This document shows, piece after piece, positions 735 to 46,282 of a stretch of DNA of 64,000 bases. A program made the translations under genes and the position numbers. The stretch is from Pseudomonadota bacterium (GTDB taxonomy: Bacteria; Pseudomonadota; Gammaproteobacteria; JAADHS01), in contig JAKACW010000009.1 in NCBI GenBank assembly GCA_021821045.1, positions 1,109 through 65,108 on the forward strand. The letters are read 5' to 3'. Each line of letters begins with the position of its first letter. Within the stretch, counting starts at the first letter, position 1. The notes below the pieces were generated by a model that searched no databases, was not told the DNA's origin, and saw nothing but the letters and a program-made list of their open reading frames with translations.

Positions 735-915
735 TTGAATCGCGAAATGATTCGCTCCCACGGCGGATGGGTCGAGTGTTGTGGGAGCGGTTTCCTACGA
801 CGCACATGGATGTGCTAGTGTCGCGAAAGGCATGGATGCCGAAAGCGACCCGCGATTCTTCGCCTGACTCATCGCGGAATGATCCGCTCCCACATATCAG
901 CAAACGACTCCCACA
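735..915. repeat. REP cluster (3-4 palindromic units, both orientations) between purH and fis
   Basis: AATCGCGAAATGATTCGCTCCCAC (738-761), GTGGGAGCGGTTTCCTACGACGCAC (781-805), ATCGCGGAATGATCCGCTCCCAC (871-893), and a CTCCCAC fragment at ~908. Confidence 0.85.
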
Positions 916-2463: not shown

Positions 2464-3702
2464 CTAGAGAAACGAAAACTCAAAACCATGGGCCTTCTGT
2501 TCCGCGTCCATGATCTCGAGCTTGACATCCACTTGCTGTTGCGGCGCGATGCCGACGTCCACATCGTCAGGGTTGGTCAAGTATTCGCTGGGTTCGAACT
2601 GGCGCGTCGCGACACGGTTGCCCCCCGCGTCCATCAGGTCGAGTCGCAGCACCGGGTAAGGTTGGCTGAACGGCGCGTCGTTGACGAAGGTTGCGCGCAC
2701 TTCGAGTGCATCGCGAATCTTTGGATGGACGCGAATGTCCCGGCTGACCAGTTTGATCAACGTAACGTTGCGCATGAGGGCGAGTTTGCAGCCGGCGAGT
2801 TCGCACATGCGTTCGAGCCAGGGGCGCAGAGGGGCATGGCGCGCCAGTTCATCGCGGGCGAAGTAGGCGATCTGGAACAAGATCGCGCTCACCAACACCA
2901 GTGTGGCGATGCCCCAGCCTAGCGTGGCCAGTGTATCGCCGCCGTCGTAACCGCCGCGCCGGCGATCGAGTTCGAAACGCGTGACCTGCTGCAGTTCGCG
3001 CCCAGCCAAATCAATGGAATCGAACAGATTGGGCAACTGCCCGCCGGGCTCTTCTTTCGGCATGGCCGGAATGGCATTGTCGAATCGCGGCATTGCCGGA
3101 GCGGCGGATCGAGACACGGGCGGCGGCTGCGGACTTGGCGCCGGTGCAGGGAGCGGGTTCGCCGGTTCAAAAATCGGCGGGCGTCGCGCCGGTTCGGGCG
3201 GCGGTGGAGTCGGTTGCTGCACCGGTCGTGCGCGCGGCTTGGGCGGCGGCGGTTCGTAGGCCGGCGGTGGCGGCGCGGCGGGCGGCGGCGTGCGCAATCC
3301 CGGCGTGTTGACGCGATTGACCGGCGGCAACGGTCGCGGCGGCGGCGGCGGTGTCGCGGTGGGAATGATGATGTGGCGCGCATTTACGCGAACGCCTTCG
3401 GCTGCGTATTCCTGCGCCAAGTCTTGCGGCAGTGACGGCGTGTCGAACGTCTCGGGAACAACCTGCGTTTCTACCGCCGGTTCGACTTCGTCTAGTGCGA
3501 CCGGCTCCCCGTCGACTTCCCACTCTTCGAATTCTTCTTCGTTTTCTTCATCGACCGTTTCGCTCGGCAGATCTTCGTACAACGCTTCGTAGGCATTGAA
3601 GGTGTTGTAGCAAAACCCGCAACGCACCTTGCCACCGACGAGTTCAAGTTGCTCCTCAGTGATGCGAAATAGAGTCTTACAATTACTGCATTGGGTGTAC
3701 AT
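2464..3702 (-). CDS. Zinc-ribbon (MJ0042-type CxxC...CxxC) / DUF3426-family protein with a long Pro-rich low-complexity linker
   Basis: N-terminus MYTQCSNCKTLFRITEEQLELVGGKVRCGFCYNTFNAY is a zinc ribbon. The middle ~110 aa is P/A-rich (TPPPPPRPLPP...PPPEPARRPP). The C-terminus has one TM plus a DUF3426-like domain. It sits between prmA and dusB, as does the equivalent hypothetical gene in Pseudomonas. Confidence 0.7.
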   Translation of the reverse strand: MYTQCSNCKTLFRITEEQLELVGGKVRCGFCYNTFNAYEALYEDLPSETVDEENEEEFEEWEVDGEPVALDEVEPAVETQVVPETFDTPSLPQDLAQEYAAEGVRVNARHIIIPTATPPPPPRPLPPVNRVNTPGLRTPPPAAPPPPAYEPPPPKPRARPVQQPTPPPPEPARRPPIFEPANPLPAPAPSPQPPPVSRSAAPAMPRFDNAIPAMPKEEPGGQLPNLFDSIDLAGRELQQVTRFELDRRRGGYDGGDTLATLGWGIATLVLVSAILFQIAYFARDELARHAPLRPWLERMCELAGCKLALMRNVTLIKLVSRDIRVHPKIRDALEVRATFVNDAPFSQPYPVLRLDLMDAGGNRVATRQFEPSEYLTNPDDVDVGIAPQQQVDVKLEIMDAEQKAHGFEFSFL

Positions 3703-21086: not shown

Positions 21087-21230
21087 GTGGGAGCCACAGC
21101 CTGGTGGGAGCGGATCATTCCGCGATGGTTTTGGACGGCGACGCGTCCGGCAAGGAATCGCGGAATGATCCGCTCCCACAACAGGGGGGCGATGGTGCCG
21201 TGGGAGCGGTTTCCTACCGCGATTCTTCGC
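21087..21230. repeat. REP cluster (4 units) between the methyltransferase gene and truC
   Basis: GTGGGAGCC..., GTGGGAGCGGATCATTCCGCGAT (21108-21130), ATCGCGGAATGATCCGCTCCCAC (21157-21179), GTGGGAGCGGTTTCCTACCGCGATTCTTCGC (21200-21230). Confidence 0.9.
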
Positions 21231-22030: not shown

Positions 22031-22118
22031 GAAGAATCGCGGAATGATCCGCTCCCACATTGAAAGCCGCTCTCGCAGTGGTAAGTGCTCCGAGGTGGGA
22101 GCGGTTTCCTACCGCGAT
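22031..22118. repeat. REP pair between truC and uup. It overlaps the annotated truC 5' end.
   Basis: GAAGAATCGCGGAATGATCCGCTCCCAC (22031-22058) and GTGGGAGCGGTTTCCTACCGCGAT (22095-22118). Confidence 0.9.
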
Positions 22119-29176: not shown

Positions 29177-29237
29177 GTGGGAGCGGATCATTCCGCGATC
29201 GACTCGGCGAAGAATCGCGGTAGGAAACCGCTCCCAC
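29177..29237. repeat. REP pair between glnE and ilvE
   Basis: GTGGGAGCGGATCATTCCGCGAT then CGAAGAATCGCGGTAGGAAACCGCTCCCAC (inverted type-B unit). Confidence 0.9.
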
Positions 29238-30201: not shown

Positions 30202-30270
30202 GAATCGCGGTAAGAAACCGCTCCCACAAGGTGGAGTGCAGTCTGTTGTGGGAGCGGATCATTCCGCGAT
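30202..30270. repeat. REP pair immediately after the ilvE stop
   Basis: GAATCGCGGTAAGAAACCGCTCCCAC then GTGGGAGCGGATCATTCCGCGAT. Confidence 0.9.
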
Positions 30271-30320
30271 GAATTCTCTGAATTGAAATTTCATTACACA
30301 GCCCGAGGGGAAGAGAAAAA

Positions 30321-30530
30321 ATGCAACATTCATCATCCGCATCTAACGAGAAGAAAATCATGCCCAACGCGCAAAATCGCTATGAGGTGACTCGTGCCGA
30401 TTTGCCGCTGCACTGTCCCATGGACAGCATGAGTTTGTGGAACTCGCACCCACGCGTTTACCTGCCCATCGAGGACACCGGCAAAGCCAAGTGCCCGTAT
30501 TGCGGCGCGGACTACGTGCTGAAGGACTGA
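30321..30530 (+). CDS. Small zinc-ribbon protein (CP ... CPYCG), hypothetical. It is bracketed by REP clusters.
   Basis: 69 aa ending LPIEDTGKAKCPYCGADYVLKD, with an earlier HCP. It lies between ilvE and waaF, flanked by REP clusters at 30202-30270 and 30554-30760. Confidence 0.45.
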   Translation: MQHSSSASNEKKIMPNAQNRYEVTRADLPLHCPMDSMSLWNSHPRVYLPIEDTGKAKCPYCGADYVLKD

Positions 30531-30553
30531 TCGACATTGACGCCAGCATTGTT

Positions 30554-30760
30554 GTGGGAGCGGATTATTCCGCGATTGAGCCAACGCAGAATCGCGGTAA
30601 GAAACCGCTCCCGCGGCGGACTGCGTTCTATCTCGTGGGAGCGGTTTCCTACCGCGATTCTTCGCCGAGTCGATCGCGGAATGATCCGCTCCCACAGGAT
30701 CCGCTCCCATACGATGGAACGCAGTCCGCTCCCAAAGTATCCGCTCCCACAGCATGATCC
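30554..30760. repeat. Large REP cluster (about 4 full units plus three CCGCTCCCA(C/T/A) stubs) between the small Zn-ribbon gene and waaF
   Basis: GTGGGAGCGGATTATTCCGCGAT, GAATCGCGGTAAGAAACCGCTCCCGC, GTGGGAGCGGTTTCCTACCGCGATTCTTCGCC, ATCGCGGAATGATCCGCTCCCAC. Then GATCCGCTCCCATAC, GTCCGCTCCCAAAG, ATCCGCTCCCACAG. Confidence 0.9.
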
Positions 30761-37813: not shown

Positions 37814-38892
37814 ATTTGCGGAATCCCCGAAGAATACTCATCATCCGCCGCGACAACATCGGCGATTTGATTTGTACGACGCCGTTGTTCCGCGCGTTGC
37901 GGGAAACGTTTCCGCACGCTTATATCGCCGCCTTGGTCAACAGCTACAACGCGCCCGTGTTGGCGGGCAATGAGGCCGTCGATCGCGTGTTCGTCTACAC
38001 CAAAGCCAAGCACGCGTCCTCGCCCGTCGATGCAGTGAAGGCGCTGGCGGCGCGCTTGGGACTCTATTGGAACATGCGCCGCGAAAAGTTCGACGTGGCC
38101 ATCGCGGCGGGATCATGTGCCGCGCCGCGCGCCGTCAGGTTGGCGCGCTTGGCGGGCGCGAAGACAGTCGTCGGTTATGACGATCCCAACGCGCGCGGCC
38201 CACGACCGGATGCCCTGCTTGCGGCGACGGACGCGCACGGGCGCCATGAAGTGGAAAACGTCTACGCCCTTGCGGCGTCCCTGGGCGTCTCGATGCCCAT
38301 ACCAAAAATGGAAATCTTTCCCGACGAAGACATGCGTCGCCAAATCTGCCACCGATTGGGCGACACCGGCGCGCAATGTCCGTCCGGCCAAATGACCATC
38401 GGCGTGCACATTAGCGCCCGCAAGCCAACTCAGCGCTGGCCGGAGGAGCGTTTCGTGCAGCTCTTGCGCGAGATCACCGCCAGCCCGTATGTGCGCGTCT
38501 TGTTGTTCTGGGCGCCGGGTGACGAATCCAACGCCCAGCATCCGGGCGATAACCAAAAAGCGGAGCGCATACTCAGCGCCATATCAAACGCGGCGGTCCA
38601 TCCTTGTCCGACCAACCGGTTGGAAGAGTTGATCGCCGGCCTATCATTATGCGACTACGTCATCTGCAGCGACGGCGGCGCCATGCACATCGCCGCCGCG
38701 CTGGGCAAACCCATCGTTTGTTTGTTTGGCCAATCCGACGCAACCCGCTGGTATCCCTGGGGCGTGCCGCACACGATCTTGCAGCCGGCGTCGCGAGATG
38801 TGAAAGATGTGACGGTAAATGAAGTGGTTAGCGCGTATCGCCAACTGATCTCGCCGTTGGGCGGGGTGAGCGAAAGCCGATTCGTAAGGTAG
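37810..38892 (+). CDS. GT9-family heptosyltransferase. Start at ATG 37810 overlaps the previous stop (ATGA).
   Basis: MNLRNPRRILIIRRDNIGDLICTTPLFRALRETFP, with the C-terminal SDGGAMHIAAALGKPIVCLFG. Confidence 0.8.
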   Translation: MNLRNPRRILIIRRDNIGDLICTTPLFRALRETFPHAYIAALVNSYNAPVLAGNEAVDRVFVYTKAKHASSPVDAVKALAARLGLYWNMRREKFDVAIAAGSCAAPRAVRLARLAGAKTVVGYDDPNARGPRPDALLAATDAHGRHEVENVYALAASLGVSMPIPKMEIFPDEDMRRQICHRLGDTGAQCPSGQMTIGVHISARKPTQRWPEERFVQLLREITASPYVRVLLFWAPGDESNAQHPGDNQKAERILSAISNAAVHPCPTNRLEELIAGLSLCDYVICSDGGAMHIAAALGKPIVCLFGQSDATRWYPWGVPHTILQPASRDVKDVTVNEVVSAYRQLISPLGGVSESRFVR

Positions 38893-39278
38893 AGGCGCCG
38901 TAATACGAAGCACCTTTCCATCCGGACAGACCCGGTATACAGGCCGCGGCGGACAAACAACTCACTTCCAGTGGACGGGCCACCCGCACAGAATTGCCGA
39001 TCGCCTTGAGTAAATCGAAAATCGGGTCGCACCGCAGTAACACCGCGAAACGATTAAAGAATTAGGCCAGAAACGGCCCGAAAAAGAGGCTTAGAATTGA
39101 TTTTTGAAGGCAAGAAAGCGATTTAGGAAATGAACGGGGTCGGGTCAGAGACATTTCTCCCGGAAGGGGTCAGAGGCGTTTAGCGAAAGACTGACACGCC
39201 GCCGCGTCGCGAGCTGACAGAGCGCCGGTTGAGAGAAGAATAAAGTGAAGACGGAGCGATATTTAAGGAGCCGTCTTC

Positions 39279-39362
39279 ATGGCGAGAAAGCCGAGATGTG
39301 TTGTGCCGGGTTATCCGCAGCATGTGACGCAGCGGGGGAATAACCGTCAGGCGTGGTCGATT
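39279..39362 (+). pseudogene. 5' remnant of a REP-associated tyrosine transposase (RAYT / TnpA_REP, IS200/IS605 Y1 family), truncated by REP units
   Basis: MARKPRCVVPGYPQHVTQRGNNRQA matches the RAYT N-terminus (MSRLPRLNLPGVPQHVIQRGNNRQA in the E. coli RAYT). Homology stops exactly where the first REP unit (GTGGGAGCGAATTCCTTTCGCGAT, 39363) begins. An RBS-sequestering hairpin GAAGACGG...AAGGAG...CCGTCTTC precedes the ATG. Confidence 0.75.
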
Positions 39363-39497
39363 GTGGGAGCGAATTCCTTTCGCGATTTGAATCGGCGCGG
39401 GCGCTGCTTCGGGCGAAGAATCGCGAAAGGATTCGCTCCCACGGAAGAATGGGGTCGGAGATTCCTCGAAGAATCGCGGTTGAAACCGCTCCTACGG
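39363..39497. repeat. REP cluster (3 units, a divergent variant with AATTCCTTTC loop) that truncates the RAYT gene
   Basis: GTGGGAGCGAATTCCTTTCGCGAT, GAAGAATCGCGAAAGGATTCGCTCCCAC, GAAGAATCGCGGTTGAAACCGCTCCTAC. Confidence 0.88.
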
Positions 39498-39508
39498 TTG
39501 AGCCATCT

Positions 39509-41305
39509 TTACATGACGGTCGCGCCCCGTGCATGATGCAACTGATATAACGACGCGTAGGTTCCACCGCGCGCCAGCAACTCCGCGTGGTTGCCGATTT
39601 CAACGATCTTGCCCTTCTCAAGCACCACGATCCGGTCCGCTTTTTCGATGGTCGACAGGCGGTGGGCGATGATGATGGTGGTGCGGCCAGCTTTCAAGGT
39701 GTCGATTGCTTCCTGGACGTAGCGCTCGGATTGGTTGTCCAACGCGGATGTGGCTTCATCAAAGATGAGAATCTGTGCGTTTTTCAATAACGCCCGGGCG
39801 ATGGCTAGGCGCTGGCGTTGACCACCCGATAGCCGCATGCCCCTTTCGCCGATGACGGTCTCAATGCCTTGGGGCAGTTGGCTGACATACTCCGTGGCAT
39901 GGGCTGCGTTGGCGGCGCGCTGTATCGCTTCGGCATCGGCGCCGGCCATTTCGCCATAGGCGATGTTCGCGGCGACGGAATCGTTGAATAGAACTACATC
40001 TTGGCTTACCAGTGCGATGTGTCTGCGCAGATCGGCTAGCCGCACTTCCTGAGTATCGATTCCATCCAGCAGGATACGTCCGCTGGTGGGTTGATAGAAA
40101 CGTGGGATCAGATGGGCCAGCGTGGTCTTGCCGCTGCCGGAGGCGCCGACGAAGGCGACCGTTTCCCCGGGCTGGATCGTCAGATCGAAGTCGTCCACCG
40201 CGTTGTGGTCGGCGCCGGTGTACCGGAAGGAAACATGCTCGAAGCGCAACTCGCCCTTGACCGTCTCCAGTGCTTTCGTACCGCTATCGGGCTCGGCGGG
40301 TTGGTCTAGCAAGGAGAAAATGGTTTCTGCTGCGGCCAAGCCGCGCTGAATTTTCTCGTTGAGGCTGGTTAGGCGCTTGATTGGCGAGAACAACATGGCC
40401 ATAGCACCGAAGAACGAGACGAACTCGCCGACGGTGATTTGATCCTGCGCCGAGGGCGAGGTGGCGAGGTAAATGACGGCGGCGAGCGCCGCGGCGACGA
40501 TGAGTTGCACGATGGGCACATTCGCCGCCGAGGTGGTGATGATCTTCATCTCATAGCGGCGCACCCAGTTCGCCGATTCATGAAAGCGCGCTTTCTCGTA
40601 CTCTTGACCGCCGTAGACCTTGACGACCTTGTTGCCCGTGATGGCTTCCTCGAGGGTGTGGGTGACATCGCCCATGGACGTCTGCAAGCCGTGACTGAGA
40701 AAGCGCAGTCGCTTGCTGATGGCTTTGACCACGATCACGATCAGCGGTCCGACAAGAAACACGAACAGCGCCAGTTTCCAGTTCAGGTAAAACATCCACG
40801 CCAGCAGACCGATGACTGCCAGCGTATCGCGCACCAGCACGATCAACACGCCCGTTGCCGCGGCGGTCACCTGGGTGACGTTGTAGACCACTCGAGAAAT
40901 CAATGTTCCCGTGGCGTTGTTGTCGTAGAATTCGCTGGGGAAACTGATCAAACGCGCAAACATGTGTTCGCGCAGGTCGAGAACGACTTTGTTGGACACC
41001 CAGTTCAGTGCAACCGTGCTGACATAGTTCGCCGCACCGCGCAGCAAGAACAGCCCGATCAAGATCAACGGCATGAGGCGAATCATGTCGGGGTCTTTCT
41101 CCACGAAGCTGCCATCGAGCAGGGGTTTAAGCAGAGCGGGCAGTGCGGGTTCGGTCAGCGCGAATACGATCATGGCGATGATCGAAACCATGAATACGCG
41201 CCAATAGGGCTTCACCCAGGTCAACAGCCGCAGGTACAGATCGCGGCTGGCGGCAAACGAAGTGGCGGGCGCTTTTCCGCGGCTTGGCTTCTTCACGCGA
41301 TTCAT
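39509..41305 (-). CDS. msbA: Lipid A export ATP-binding/permease protein MsbA
   Basis: 598 aa, six TM helices plus an ABC domain (GASGSGKTT, LSGGQRQRLAIARALL). It sits inside the LPS cluster. Confidence 0.9.
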   Translation of the reverse strand: MNRVKKPSRGKAPATSFAASRDLYLRLLTWVKPYWRVFMVSIIAMIVFALTEPALPALLKPLLDGSFVEKDPDMIRLMPLILIGLFLLRGAANYVSTVALNWVSNKVVLDLREHMFARLISFPSEFYDNNATGTLISRVVYNVTQVTAAATGVLIVLVRDTLAVIGLLAWMFYLNWKLALFVFLVGPLIVIVVKAISKRLRFLSHGLQTSMGDVTHTLEEAITGNKVVKVYGGQEYEKARFHESANWVRRYEMKIITTSAANVPIVQLIVAAALAAVIYLATSPSAQDQITVGEFVSFFGAMAMLFSPIKRLTSLNEKIQRGLAAAETIFSLLDQPAEPDSGTKALETVKGELRFEHVSFRYTGADHNAVDDFDLTIQPGETVAFVGASGSGKTTLAHLIPRFYQPTSGRILLDGIDTQEVRLADLRRHIALVSQDVVLFNDSVAANIAYGEMAGADAEAIQRAANAAHATEYVSQLPQGIETVIGERGMRLSGGQRQRLAIARALLKNAQILIFDEATSALDNQSERYVQEAIDTLKAGRTTIIIAHRLSTIEKADRIVVLEKGKIVEIGNHAELLARGGTYASLYQLHHARGATVM

Positions 41306-46140: not shown

Positions 46141-46282
46141 CGGAGCGGATCGTTCCGCGATATGAATCGGCGAAGAATCGCGGTAAGAAACCGCTCCCAC
46201 GATAAGATTGTAGGAGCGGATTTATCCGCGAAACGCGTCGGCGACGAATGGTCGAAGAATCGCGGTAGGAAACCGCTCCCAC
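46141..46282. repeat. REP cluster (4 units) between hldE and hldD
   Basis: GGAGCGGATCGTTCCGCGAT, GAAGAATCGCGGTAAGAAACCGCTCCCAC, GTAGGAGCGGATTTATCCGCGAAAC, GAAGAATCGCGGTAGGAAACCGCTCCCAC. Confidence 0.9.

What the first reader, a model, noticed from the sequence alone, without database searches (positions are those of the whole stretch)
38893..39500. RAYT (REP-associated tyrosine transposase) decapitated by its own REPs, with an IS200-style RBS-sequestering hairpin retained
The first 25 codons at 39279 (MARKPRCVVPGYPQHVTQRGNNRQA) are diagnostic of the TnpA_REP/RAYT subgroup of IS200/IS605 Y1 transposases. Homology ends abruptly at the first of three REP units, so the HuH/Tyr catalytic core is gone. 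Just upstream, GAAGACGG-N16-CCGTCTTC folds over the AAGGAG Shine-Dalgarno, the translational-repression hairpin typical of IS200-family tnpA genes. The 380-bp region before it (38893-39278) is noticeably AT-richer than the surrounding sequence and has no gene. This dead RAYT sits exactly at the break between the two LPS-core blocks (..GT9 | RAYT-REP | msbA..). That implicates REP/RAYT activity in the rearrangement of the waa locus. The REP units here (AATTCCTTTC loop) are a divergent subfamily of the GATCATTCC / GTTTCCTAC units seen elsewhere in the window. This is consistent with each RAYT mobilising its cognate REP variant.
Basis: partly seen in the sequence, partly recalled or inferred. Interest (0 to 1): 0.5.

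Follow-up and report, generated by a model that had tools for sequence, protein, structure and literature searches.

The report
Dead TIRYT transposase stub beside REPs
This is the dead front end of a known selfish gene (a TIRYT-type tyrosine transposase, with its own GGGGTCAGAG end-repeats, a leader hairpin and 25 codons), cut off next to three unrelated REP repeats in the spacer between two convergent LPS genes; it is an ordinary piece of genomic debris.

Summary
An ATG at 39279 opens 25 codons that match the N-terminus of a ~234-aa Y1 (HuH) transposase family (E 2.3e-9, the only hit in the window). Homology stops at 39355, 7 nt before the first of three REP units. A stable hairpin (39245-39280, z -4.8) sits over the start codon.

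The relatives are TnpA_Y1 subclass 2.1 (Bertels Group 1, "TIRYT/TIRtron"). Published surveys find no REPs next to this subclass. In 39 of 65 full-length loci fetched here it is flanked by inverted GGGGTCAGAG-type repeats.

The "gene-less AT-rich" stretch carries two such repeats at the family-typical distance upstream (39136-39182). A third lies at 39449-39466. So the GTGGGAGCG REPs are not this gene's own repeats. They fit the canonical GT[AG]G short-hairpin type, which the literature pairs with other RAYT subclasses.

REPs occupy seven intergenic sites in the window, so finding them after msbA is unremarkable. Nothing ties the stub to a rearrangement of the waa locus.

Similar hairpins are common across the family (p 6.5e-10 against control genes). 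Here the Shine-Dalgarno lies in the loop, not the stem.

Verdict: a decayed member of a known kind, of low interest.

The parts
38893..39135 (.). AT-richer spacer after the GT9 gene stop; no recognisable gene or repeat; origin unknown
   Evidence: GC is 0.485-0.53. There is no Rfam match, and no similarity to the rest of the window or to 79 TIRYT loci. A terminator-like hairpin lies on the minus strand at 39079-39064.
39136..39156 (+). Left terminal repeat copy a (GGGGTC-GGGTCAGAGACATTT), with an apparent 5-nt internal duplication
   Evidence: GGGTCAGA lies at 39142. It matches the family left-end consensus AAnGGGGTCAGAG-N3-TTT. It is 137 nt upstream of the ATG; the family range is 54-180.
39164..39182 (+). 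Left terminal repeat copy b (AAGGGGTCAGAGGCGTTTA), the ATG-proximal TIR
   Evidence: It is one of only two exact GGGGTCRGAG matches in the 64-kb window. It lies 112 nt upstream of the ATG (family median 85). It fits the published TIRYT motif GGGGWSAS (PMC3733652).
39183..39244 (+). Decayed promoter and 5' leader region
   Evidence: AAGACT (39187-39192) sits at the same offset from the TIR as TATACT in L025 (read). Only 19 of 45 left ends carry any TAnnnT in that span, so this is weak support. There is also a weak sigma-70-like match, CTGACA-16-AAGAAT, at 39214-39241. Both are inferred, not shown.
39245..39280 (+). Leader hairpin: 10-bp stem and 16-nt loop holding the SD AAGGAG (39265-39270); the 3' arm pairs the spacer and the A and U of the AUG
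   Evidence: dG is -21.5 kcal/mol and z is -4.84. The family-wide initiation-region structure has mean z -1.11 (n=67) against +0.10 for control genes (n=106), p 6.5e-10.
39279..39355 (+). Remnant of the TIRYT (TnpA_Y1 subclass 2.1) gene: codons 1-25 plus 2 nt, about 11% of the protein; the HuH, Tyr and C-terminal domains are absent
   Evidence: hmmsearch gives E 2.3e-9 over profile positions 1-26 of 234. blastn homology ends at 39355. P0002 matches at 84% over 25 aa.
39363..39442 (.). REPIN: two inverted REP units, REP1 39363-39387 (+) and REP2 39419-39442 (-), with GCGAA/TTCGC stems and a 31-nt spacer between the units
   Evidence: Inverted repeats I1 and I2. The units belong to the window-wide GT[AG]GGAGCG family, as shown by the alignment with compensatory stem changes.
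39449..39466 (+). Third TIR-like copy (ATGGGGTCGGAGATTCCT), in the same orientation as the left TIRs, lying between REP2 and REP3
   Evidence: It is the second of the only two exact GGGGTCRGAG matches in the window. It is not part of other REP tails. The same layout, a 5' fragment followed by a (+) TIR, occurs in L011 and L025.
39467..39495 (-). REP3 (GTAGGAGCGGTTTCAACCGCGATTCTTCG on the minus strand), 13 nt from the msbA stop codon (39509-39511)
   Evidence: The sequence is identical in an independent assembly, L002.
39279..39536 (+). 85-aa ORF called as a gene in public records (P0001); only the first 25 residues have any homologue, and the rest reads through REPs into the msbA 3' end, so it is judged spurious
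   Evidence: It has no Pfam or NCBIfam hit.

Best explanation
The locus holds the dead left end of a TIRtron. A TIRtron is a selfish or domesticated unit made of a TIRYT gene (TnpA_Y1 subclass 2.1, Bertels Group 1 'RAYT') bracketed by inverted GGGGTCAGAG-type repeats. What survives, in order, is:
- two left repeats;
- a decayed promoter and leader;
- a leader hairpin that occludes the start codon;
- codons 1-25.

Everything needed for catalysis is gone: the HuH motif (about residue 60), the Tyr motif (about residue 120), the C-terminal domain and the inverted right repeat. The stub therefore does nothing as a transposase.

The stub abuts a REPIN plus a single REP of the genome's abundant GT[AG]G-tagged short-hairpin REP family. 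These REPs are not cognate to this gene. By published precedent they would be moved by a different RAYT (subclass 2.5-like), presumably encoded elsewhere in the genome.

Shown: family assignment, truncation point, TIRs, REP family membership, and the existence of the hairpin with its enrichment across the family.

Inferred: that the hairpin once throttled translation as in IS200; that the REPs depend on another RAYT; and the order of events. I weakly favour this order: a REPIN landed in, or recombined at, the 5' part of an already or subsequently deleted element.
For: Family assignment:
- The profile of 68 full-length relatives hits only 39279-39355 in the window, E 2.3e-9.
- Relatives are 229-245 aa (with one 248 and two 251-252), are PF01797-positive, and carry MTNHVHLL, LWEGRF and YIELNP. 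These are the key motifs and length of subclass 2.1 in Table 1 of PMC6006769.
- That paper reports no REPs near subclass 2.1 and says it probably corresponds to the TIRYTs, whose TIR motif is GGGGWSAS (PMC3733652).

Terminal repeats:
- In 65 full-length loci, 39 have a (+) TIR upstream and a (-) TIR after the stop. Four have only the upstream copy, 7 only the downstream copy, and wrong orientations occur in 3 and 0 loci (list).
- The window has GGGTCRGA at 39142, 39167 and 39452, all (+). That is 3 of 7 in the whole window, against 4.4 expected. The only two exact GGGGTCRGAG matches are both here.

REPs:
- 22 copies against 1.19 expected.
- Invariant GTRGGAGCG...CGCGA with compensatory stem variants.
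- The foot + 2 nt + 5-bp stem totals 11 nt, matching the 'short REP' description for subclass 2.5.
- An exact 23-mer recurs in 17 contigs of another metagenome.
- GTRGGAGCG is essentially absent from the other TIRYT loci.

Hairpin.

Independent assembly: L002 is identical over its whole 121-nt overlap (msbA 3' end, REP3, third TIR copy, REP2) and then ends.
Against: - Only 25 codons remain, so subclass assignment rests on the N-terminus and the flanking TIRs, not on catalytic motifs.
- 15 of 65 relatives lack the strict 8-mer TIR motif, so the TIR association is strong but not universal.
- The cognate RAYT of the REP family was not found in the window or in the 17 REP-bearing metagenome contigs. 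'Non-cognate' therefore rests on family-level evidence and the literature, not on this genome.
- The third TIR copy is in (+) orientation, not the (-) orientation expected for a right end. The history of the locus is not resolved.
Confidence: 0.85

Rival explanations
1. One reading: a genuine REP-associated transposase (RAYT) was decapitated by insertion of the very REPs it mobilises. On this view the local AATTCCTTTC units are its cognate REP variant.
For: Homology stops 7 nt before REP1. The two REPIN units here share a rare stem variant, GCGAA/TTCGC, seen only once elsewhere in the window. Relatives fall in class 2, 'RAYT' in the broad sense (Bertels Group 1).
Against: - Subclass 2.1 has no REP association in the literature or in the 79 TIRYT loci.
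- The stub keeps its own GGGGTCAGAG repeats upstream, and no REP lies on its 5' side.
- NF047646 scores a full-length relative below its cut-off.
- E. coli TnpArep does not share the N-terminal motif.
- The local REPs differ from the main family by one compensatory base pair only.
Confidence: 0.06
2. Truncation came first and is intrinsic to TIRtrons. The element had already collapsed to 'TIR(+) - leader - N-terminal codons - TIR(+)', a by-product of TIR-level recombination or abortive TIRYT action. A REPIN was inserted at the junction later, so the REPs did not cause the decapitation.
For: The same layout occurs independently in Paraglaciecola (L011, about 36-50 codons then a (+) TIR) and in Mariprofundus (L025, about 37 codons then a (+) TIR). 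In the window a (+) TIR copy follows the fragment once the 80-nt REPIN is removed in silico: 7 nt + REPIN + 8 nt + GGGGTCGGAG.
Against: The REPIN would have had to land within about 10 nt of the pre-existing junction, which is roughly a 5-10% coincidence for a stub of about 330 bp. The truncation points differ among the three cases. There is no target-site duplication or other footprint to date the events.
Confidence: 0.3
3. The stub is retained because it is useful. It could serve as a TIR + promoter + structured leader that gives a small RNA or an 85-aa peptide, analogous to the IS200 5'tnpA-derived sRNA of Salmonella. It could also act as a terminator or insulator between the convergent operons.
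For: The stem is a perfect 10 bp and the 25 codons are uninterrupted although the gene is dead. The ORF is called as a gene in public records. There is precedent for IS200 leader RNAs acting in trans (PMC5435999, listed).
Against: The putative -10 is degenerate. Residues 26-85 of the ORF are REP read-through and have no homologue. There is no Rfam hit. No orthologous stub was seen in relatives. Recent truncation explains the intactness equally well.
Confidence: 0.05
4. Assembly artefact: the metagenome assembler joined two loci through a shared REP and so created a false truncation.
For: The window comes from a metagenome contig (k141_279037). REPs are repeated 22 times in the window.
Against: Each REP or REPIN is 25-80 nt long. 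That is shorter than the k-mer of 141 suggested by the contig name (an inference from the name only). An independent Logan assembly from another run (SRR13304626) is identical over the msbA 3' end, REP3, the third TIR copy and REP2. The left side is continuous with the unique GT9 gene.
Confidence: 0.03

Closest known systems
TIRYT / TIRtron (Di Nocera et al. 2013, PMC3733652), probably the same as TnpA_Y1 subclass 2.1 (Quentin et al. 2018, PMC6006769), which is Bertels et al. 2017 'Group 1 RAYT' (PMC5581495)
   Same: The N-terminal 25 residues fit the family profile (E 2.3e-9). Upstream repeats fit GGGGWSAS at the family-typical distance. Relatives have NHVH, WE and YIELNP motifs, are about 234 aa long, and are annotated simply as 'transposase' in RefSeq plasmids.
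   Different: Only about 11% of the gene survives. There is no HuH motif, no Tyr motif, no C-terminal domain and no inverted right TIR. It is a remnant derived from a member, not a functional member.
Canonical REPtron: TnpA_REP/RAYT flanked by GT[AG]G REPs (E. coli YafM, PDB 4ER8; Pseudomonas/Xanthomonas subclass 2.5)
   Same: Both belong to the HuH/Y1 superfamily (class 2). REPs of the canonical GT[AG]G type lie next to the stub.
   Different: REPs lie on one side only, and the 5' side carries TIRs. The N-terminal motif is not shared with 4ER8, whose alignment starts at residue 22 (E 0.0025). NF047646 scores below its cut-off. The family is not REP-associated in 79 loci.
GT[AG]G-tagged REP/REPIN families (Bertels & Rainey 2011; Di Nocera 2013; 'short REP' of subclass 2.5 in Quentin 2018)
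   Same: The three units at 39363-39495 have a 5' GT[AG]G foot, a 5-bp stem with compensatory variants and a conserved CGCGAT(TCTTCG) tail. They occur in inverted doublets, are extragenic, and are about 18-fold over-represented in the window.
   Different: The two REPIN units here carry an A-T instead of a G-C at the fourth stem pair, and their inter-unit spacer (31 nt) looks longer than in the other doublets of the window (by eye). Their RAYT was not found in the available sequence.
IS200 tnpA 5'UTR stem-loop that sequesters the Shine-Dalgarno (Ellis et al. 2015, PMC4513863)
   Same: A stable leader hairpin sits at the ribosome-binding region of a Y1 transposase gene. Comparable structures are enriched across the TIRYT family.
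   Different: Here the SD is in the 16-nt loop, and the stem pairs the spacer and the first two bases of the AUG. There is no sequence homology to the IS200 leader. No antisense RNA was identified. Function was not tested, and the gene it would regulate is dead.

Membership tests
TnpA_Y1 subclass 2.1 / TIRYT (TIRtron) | Protein homology to the family | tested here: met
   hmmsearch of a profile from 68 full-length relatives gives E 2.3e-9 over positions 1-26 of 234, the only hit in the six-frame window. P0002 matches at 84% over 25 aa.
TnpA_Y1 subclass 2.1 / TIRYT (TIRtron) | HuH motif (NHVH) | tested here: not met
   Homology ends at codon 25-26, whereas the motif lies near residue 60 in relatives. 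No further fragment exists in any frame of the window. The locus therefore holds a remnant, not a functional member.
TnpA_Y1 subclass 2.1 / TIRYT (TIRtron) | Catalytic Tyr motif (YIELNP) and C-terminal HTH-like tail | tested here: not met
   Both are absent from the window. They are present in relatives L009, L029 and L024.
TnpA_Y1 subclass 2.1 / TIRYT (TIRtron) | Left terminal repeat with GGGGWSAS upstream of the gene, same strand | tested here: met
   Copies lie at 39136-39156 and 39164-39182, 137 and 112 nt before the ATG. The family range is 54-180 with median 85.
TnpA_Y1 subclass 2.1 / TIRYT (TIRtron) | Inverted right terminal repeat just after the stop codon | tested here: not met
   No (-) copy is nearby; only a (+) copy at 39449-39466. 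In relatives, 46 of 65 have the (-) copy and 0 of 65 have a (+) copy downstream.
Canonical RAYT / REPtron | Gene flanked by GT[AG]G REPs (REPtron arrangement) | tested here: not met
   REPs lie only 3' of the stub, and none lies in 38893-39278. Relatives are flanked by TIRs, not REPs.
Canonical RAYT / REPtron | Match to NCBIfam NF047646 (REP_Tyr_transpos) at or above its cut-off | tested here: not met
   The fragment has no hit. Full-length relative L006 scores 70.6 bits against a cut-off of 80.
Canonical RAYT / REPtron | Residues that read the GTAG guide (W94, Q95, R104 region of E. coli TnpArep) | not testable with these tools
   That region is deleted in the window. The literature states that subclass 2.1 has different motifs there.
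GT[AG]G REP / REPIN | 5' GT[AG]G foot next to a hairpin whose stem co-varies | tested here: met
   In alignment A3 the positions GTRGGAGCG and CGCGA are invariant. The fourth stem pair is G-C or A-T, and the fifth is A-T or T-A.
GT[AG]G REP / REPIN | High copy number, extragenic, often in inverted doublets | tested here: met
   22 copies against 1.19 expected. They form seven clusters, all outside the long ORFs judged to be the genes (the ORF list is mechanical). The doublet 39363/39442 is shown. An exact 23-mer recurs in 17 contigs of metagenome Ga0105106.
GT[AG]G REP / REPIN | A cognate RAYT in the same genome | not testable with these tools
   None was found in the window or in the 17 short contigs.
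IS200-type translational-repression leader | Stable stem-loop at the ribosome-binding site | tested here: met
   dG is -21.5 kcal/mol and z is -4.84. The mean pairing probability of positions -6 to +3 is 0.87.
IS200-type translational-repression leader | Shine-Dalgarno itself base-paired in the stem | tested here: not met
   AAGGAG (39265-39270) is in the loop of the MFE and centroid structures.
IS200-type translational-repression leader | Actually lowers translation | not testable with these tools
   This needs reporter fusions or toeprinting, as in PMC4513863.

The most novel reading that the evidence does not exclude
5' stubs of TIRtrons, of the form (+)TIR - promoter - start-occluding hairpin - a few dozen codons - (+)TIR, recur in unrelated genomes: this window, Paraglaciecola L011 and Mariprofundus L025. 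They may be a specific by-product of TIRYT chemistry, for example one-ended or abortive strand transfer between left ends. Alternatively they may be retained as structured leader RNAs with a host function, like the IS200 5'tnpA sRNA. Either case would give a first handle on what subclass 2.1 Y1 enzymes, whose activity is uncharacterised, actually do to DNA.
Probability: 0.08. Interest if true: 0.45.

Novelty: new member of a known kind. Interest (0 to 1): 0.15.

Why it matters
It matters little for biology and somewhat more for annotation.

- The 85-aa 'gene' in the public record is a pseudogene stub fused to REP read-through.
- The REPs beside it should not be attributed to it.
- The case shows that a 'RAYT-like' N-terminus does not imply REP association. 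Subclass 2.1 (TIRYT) genes carry their own GGGGTCAGAG repeats.
- Two by-products of the check were not found in the parts of three papers that I read: a family-wide enrichment of start-site hairpins, and recurrent 5' stubs bounded by left-end repeats. They might help in designing experiments on these uncharacterised HuH enzymes. They are modest observations that need a proper survey.

Tried and rejected
- Pfam and NCBIfam scans of the 85-aa ORF and the 29-aa peptide gave no hit because the query is too short. A custom family profile replaced them.
- Rfam on 38700-39700 gave only a meaningless miRNA match over the REPIN, 21.5 bits against a gathering score of 268.
- The search for a C-terminal remnant or any other Y1 gene in the window found nothing.
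- The attempt to find the REP family's own RAYT scanned metagenome contigs for an exact 23-nt REP. It returned 17 short contigs from one JGI sample with no Y1 gene.
- The test of the 'rearrangement breakpoint' idea looked at synteny around msbA orthologues (75% and about 64% identity). The block lpxL-GT9-GT4-msbA is kept in the closest relative. What follows msbA differs in each. The downstream GT9 of the closest relative is only 25% identical to the window's GT9, so it is not an orthologue and there is no evidence of an inversion.
- A search for extra degenerate TIR copies in 38893-39135 with up to 2 mismatches found no enrichment (100 matches against 110 expected window-wide).
- No target-site duplication flanks the REPIN (read directly).
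- I did not use structure prediction or the 1.84-billion-protein search. A 25-residue stub would not benefit from either.
Full report
**Setting.** The 616-bp spacer 38893-39508 lies between two convergent genes. One is a GT9 heptosyltransferase-family gene (37720/37810-38892, +). The other is msbA (39509-41305, -). The window comes from a 98-kb metagenome contig (ENA ERZ27237524). The organism is an uncultured bacterium, apparently a gammaproteobacterium; its nearest msbA relatives are 75% and then about 65% identical.

**Checking the observation.**
- *N-terminal match.* The ATG at 39279 opens MARKPRCVVPGYPQHVTQRGNNRQA. Curated libraries are blind to so short a piece. The big protein search found a 62-aa fragment, P0002, that is 84% identical over these 25 residues. 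The relatives of P0002 are PF01797 (Y1_Tnp) proteins with the HAYVLMTNHVHLL HuH block.
- *Profile test.* A scan of species-representative genomes returned 79 loci. From these I extracted 68 distinct full-length proteins of 227-252 aa (most 229-245) and built a profile. Against every six-frame segment of the window it hits only 39279-39355 (E 2.3e-9, profile positions 1-26 of 234). The next best segment has E = 2.
- *Breakpoint.* At the DNA level, homology to relatives stops at 39355. The first REP starts at 39363. There is no other fragment of the gene anywhere, so no point correction can restore it.
- *Hairpin.* The hairpin exists as described: an 8-bp core extendable to 10 bp, at 39245-39254 / 39271-39280. 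It has dG -21.5 kcal/mol and z -4.84. The Shine-Dalgarno AAGGAG sits in the loop. The stem pairs the spacer and the A and U of the AUG.
- *Composition.* The region upstream is AT-richer (GC 0.485-0.53 against about 0.57-0.62).
- *Independent assembly.* A second assembly from another sequencing run is identical across the msbA 3' end, REP3 and REP2.

**What the gene was.** Full-length relatives carry NHVH, LWEGRF and YIELNP, are about 234 aa long, and pass PF01797. They score below the cut-off of the NCBIfam 'REP-associated tyrosine transposase' model (70.6 against 80). These are the key motifs and length of TnpA_Y1 subclass 2.1 in Quentin et al. 2018 (PMC6006769, Table 1).

That paper equates subclass 2.1 with Bertels Group 1. 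It says the subclass probably corresponds to the TIRYTs of Di Nocera et al. 2013 (PMC3733652). TIRYTs are tyrosine transposases flanked not by REPs but by terminal inverted repeats that share GGGGWSAS. Quentin et al. state that neither automatic nor manual searches found REP-like sequences near subclass 2.1 genes.

I reproduced this independently. Among 65 full-length loci with enough flank:
- 39 have GGGTCRGA in (+) orientation within 200 bp upstream and in (-) orientation just after the stop;
- 4 have only the upstream copy and 7 only the downstream copy;
- the wrong orientation occurs 3 times upstream and 0 times downstream;
- the background density is 0.2 per kb.

By contrast, the window's REP core GTRGGAGCG is absent from 72 of the 79 TIRYT loci and is only sporadic in the rest. 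The solved E. coli TnpArep (4ER8) aligns with a relative only weakly (E 0.0025) and only from residue 22 onward. The surviving 25 residues are therefore a signature of the TIRYT clade, not of REP-associated RAYTs.

**What the 'empty' upstream region contains.** Two copies of the family's left repeat lie at 39136-39156 (GGGGTC-GGGTCAGAGACATTT) and 39164-39182 (AAGGGGTCAGAGGCGTTTA). They are on the gene's strand, 137 and 112 nt before the ATG. In relatives this distance is 54-180 nt, with median 85. A third copy in the same orientation (ATGGGGTCGGAGATTCCT, 39449-39466) lies between REP2 and REP3.

GGGTCRGA occurs only 7 times in 64 kb (4.4 expected), and three of these fall within this 320-bp stretch. 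The only two exact GGGGTCRGAG matches in the window are both here. The remaining 243 bp (38893-39135) match nothing I could find.

**The REPs.** The window has 22 GTRGGAGCG units against 1.19 expected, in seven clusters, all outside the long ORFs judged to be the genes. Their alignment shows the following:
- an invariant GT[AG]GGAGCG foot and 5' stem;
- an invariant CGCGA 3' stem;
- variable upper-stem and loop bases that change in a compensatory way (GCGGA/TCCGC, GCGGT/ACCGC, GCGAA/TTCGC).

Foot + 2 nt + 5-bp stem totals 11 nt. This matches the 'short REP' geometry that Quentin et al. describe for subclass 2.5 RAYTs.

The two units of the local REPIN (39363-39442) share the GCGAA/TTCGC stem, which is seen once more at 761. 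No RAYT is encoded in the window. Seventeen short contigs from another metagenome carry the exact REP 23-mer, and none of them encodes a RAYT either.

**The hairpin in context.** For 67 distinct relatives I folded positions -45 to +6 around the start. The mean z-score against shuffles is -1.11. It is +0.10 for 106 other long ORF starts in the same loci (Mann-Whitney p 6.5e-10). The start region is also more often paired (0.56 against 0.47, p 0.004). Many relatives show the same design as the window: an upstream arm pairs the AUG and spacer, with the SD in the loop (for example L026, L011, L036 and L031).

So the hairpin is plausibly an inherited feature of the family's leader. It is functionally analogous to the IS200 leader stem-loop that blocks 30S binding (PMC4513863). 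The analogy is not exact: IS200 pairs the SD itself, there is no sequence homology, and nothing was tested here. Two caveats apply. The shuffles were mononucleotide shuffles, and the control start sites were chosen mechanically.

**How the truncation happened.** This is not resolved. Homology ends 7 nt before REP1. That fits REPIN insertion or REP-mediated deletion.

However, the (+) TIR copy just beyond the REPIN recalls two independent loci. In those, a left TIR, leader and 36-50 codons are followed directly by another (+) TIR (L011, L025). Other decayed copies in the sample show frameshifts, internal deletions or abrupt junctions. Decay of TIRtrons is therefore common and takes varied forms. 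I give about 0.3 to the scenario in which truncation came first and the REPIN arrived later.

**The rearrangement claim.** The block lpxL-GT9-GT4-msbA is conserved in the closest relative (L083). Downstream of msbA that relative has a co-directional GT9 only 25% identical to the window's. Two more distant relatives have a GT2 and a convergent methyltransferase there. The 3' end of msbA is thus a boundary between conserved and variable LPS genes in this group. That variability also appears in L083, whose next gene follows msbA after only 24 nt and whose locus holds no GTRGGAGCG. REPs sit in seven spacers of the window regardless. There is no positive evidence that REP or TIRYT activity shaped the locus.

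**Verdict.** The feature is a pseudogene stub of a known element class (TIRYT/TIRtron, subclass 2.1) lying beside non-cognate canonical REPs. It is of low interest, apart from two small family-level observations: start-site hairpins, and recurrent 5' stubs bounded by left repeats.

Noticed in passing
L007:1-130 and L046:2830-2920: Upstream of two TIRYT genes (both decayed copies, 93 and 104 aa) the repeat core is amplified into a head-to-tail array. The unit GGATTAAAGGGGTCA, period about 15 nt, is repeated at least 7 times in L007. This is a microsatellite-like expansion of the TIR core.
   Followed up: no
L011:4306-4625 and L025:2743-2950: These loci hold 5' stubs of the same family. A left TIR, leader and 36-50 codons end directly at another (+) TIR. 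L011 then continues with the last ~40 nt of the gene and a (-) TIR. L025 continues with a complete second copy. The layout is the same as in the window.
   Followed up: partly
L025:2939-2966, L003:3873-3905, L024, L045, L070 (left ends listed): In several relatives a TATACT/TAATAT/TAGACT box, often preceded by TG(n), lies about 20-27 nt after GGGGTCAGAG. This suggests an extended -10 promoter built into or against the left repeat. Only 19 of 45 left ends have TAnnnT in that span (6 of 17 right ends do as well), so the feature is not universal or clearly left-end-specific.
   Followed up: partly
L058:2920-2945 and 3610-3635: In a Spongiibacteraceae MAG the flanking repeat is itself a perfect palindrome (GGGGTCAGAGTATTTACTCTGACCCC) on both sides of the gene. 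This resembles the self-complementary TIR family that Di Nocera et al. reported in Stenotrophomonas maltophilia.
   Followed up: no
L018:3001-5061: In Frateuria sp. GZRe12 the TIRYT reading frame runs on for 686 aa instead of about 234. A (-) TIR motif lies at about codon 235 inside the ORF. This is probably a lost stop codon or a fusion.
   Followed up: no
window 39279-39536: Public records (ENA/NCBI, P0001) call an 85-aa protein here. Residues 26-85 are translation of REP units and of the antisense strand of the msbA 3' end. This is almost certainly a spurious gene call.
   Followed up: yes
window 753-893, 21104-21208, 22050-22103, 29177-29237, 30219-30750, 46192-46282: Six further clusters of the same GT[AG]GGAGCG REP family occur here. 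Units are usually paired as one GGATCATTCC-type with one GGTTTCCTACC-type in inverted orientation (heterodimeric REPINs). The largest cluster (30219-30750) has at least 7 units.
   Followed up: partly
L086-L102 (JGI metagenome Ga0105106): The exact 23-nt REP GTGGGAGCGGATCATTCCGCGAT occurs on 17 short contigs of a single unrelated metagenome. The same or a sister organism with this REP family is therefore present there.
   Followed up: partly
L083:7828-9504, L084:6209-7100, L085:7810-8600: Gene content immediately downstream of msbA differs in each of three relatives: a co-directional GT9, a GT2, and a convergent methyltransferase. The upstream lpxL-GT9-GT4-msbA block is kept in the closest one. 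The 3' end of msbA marks the edge of a variable LPS region.
   Followed up: partly
window 39064-39079 (minus strand): A terminator-like hairpin, GGGCCGTTTCTGGCCT followed by a T-rich tail, reads on the minus strand in the middle of the otherwise featureless AT-rich spacer.
   Followed up: no
L034:447 and 3001; L041 and L043 (same contig NZ_AJXW01000025): Frateuria hangzhouensis and Rhodanobacter thiooxydans each carry two full-length TIRYT genes on one contig. In Frateuria they lie within about 2.5 kb of each other; in Rhodanobacter they are about 14 kb apart. This is consistent with the higher copy number and duplication rate reported for Bertels Group 1.
   Followed up: no
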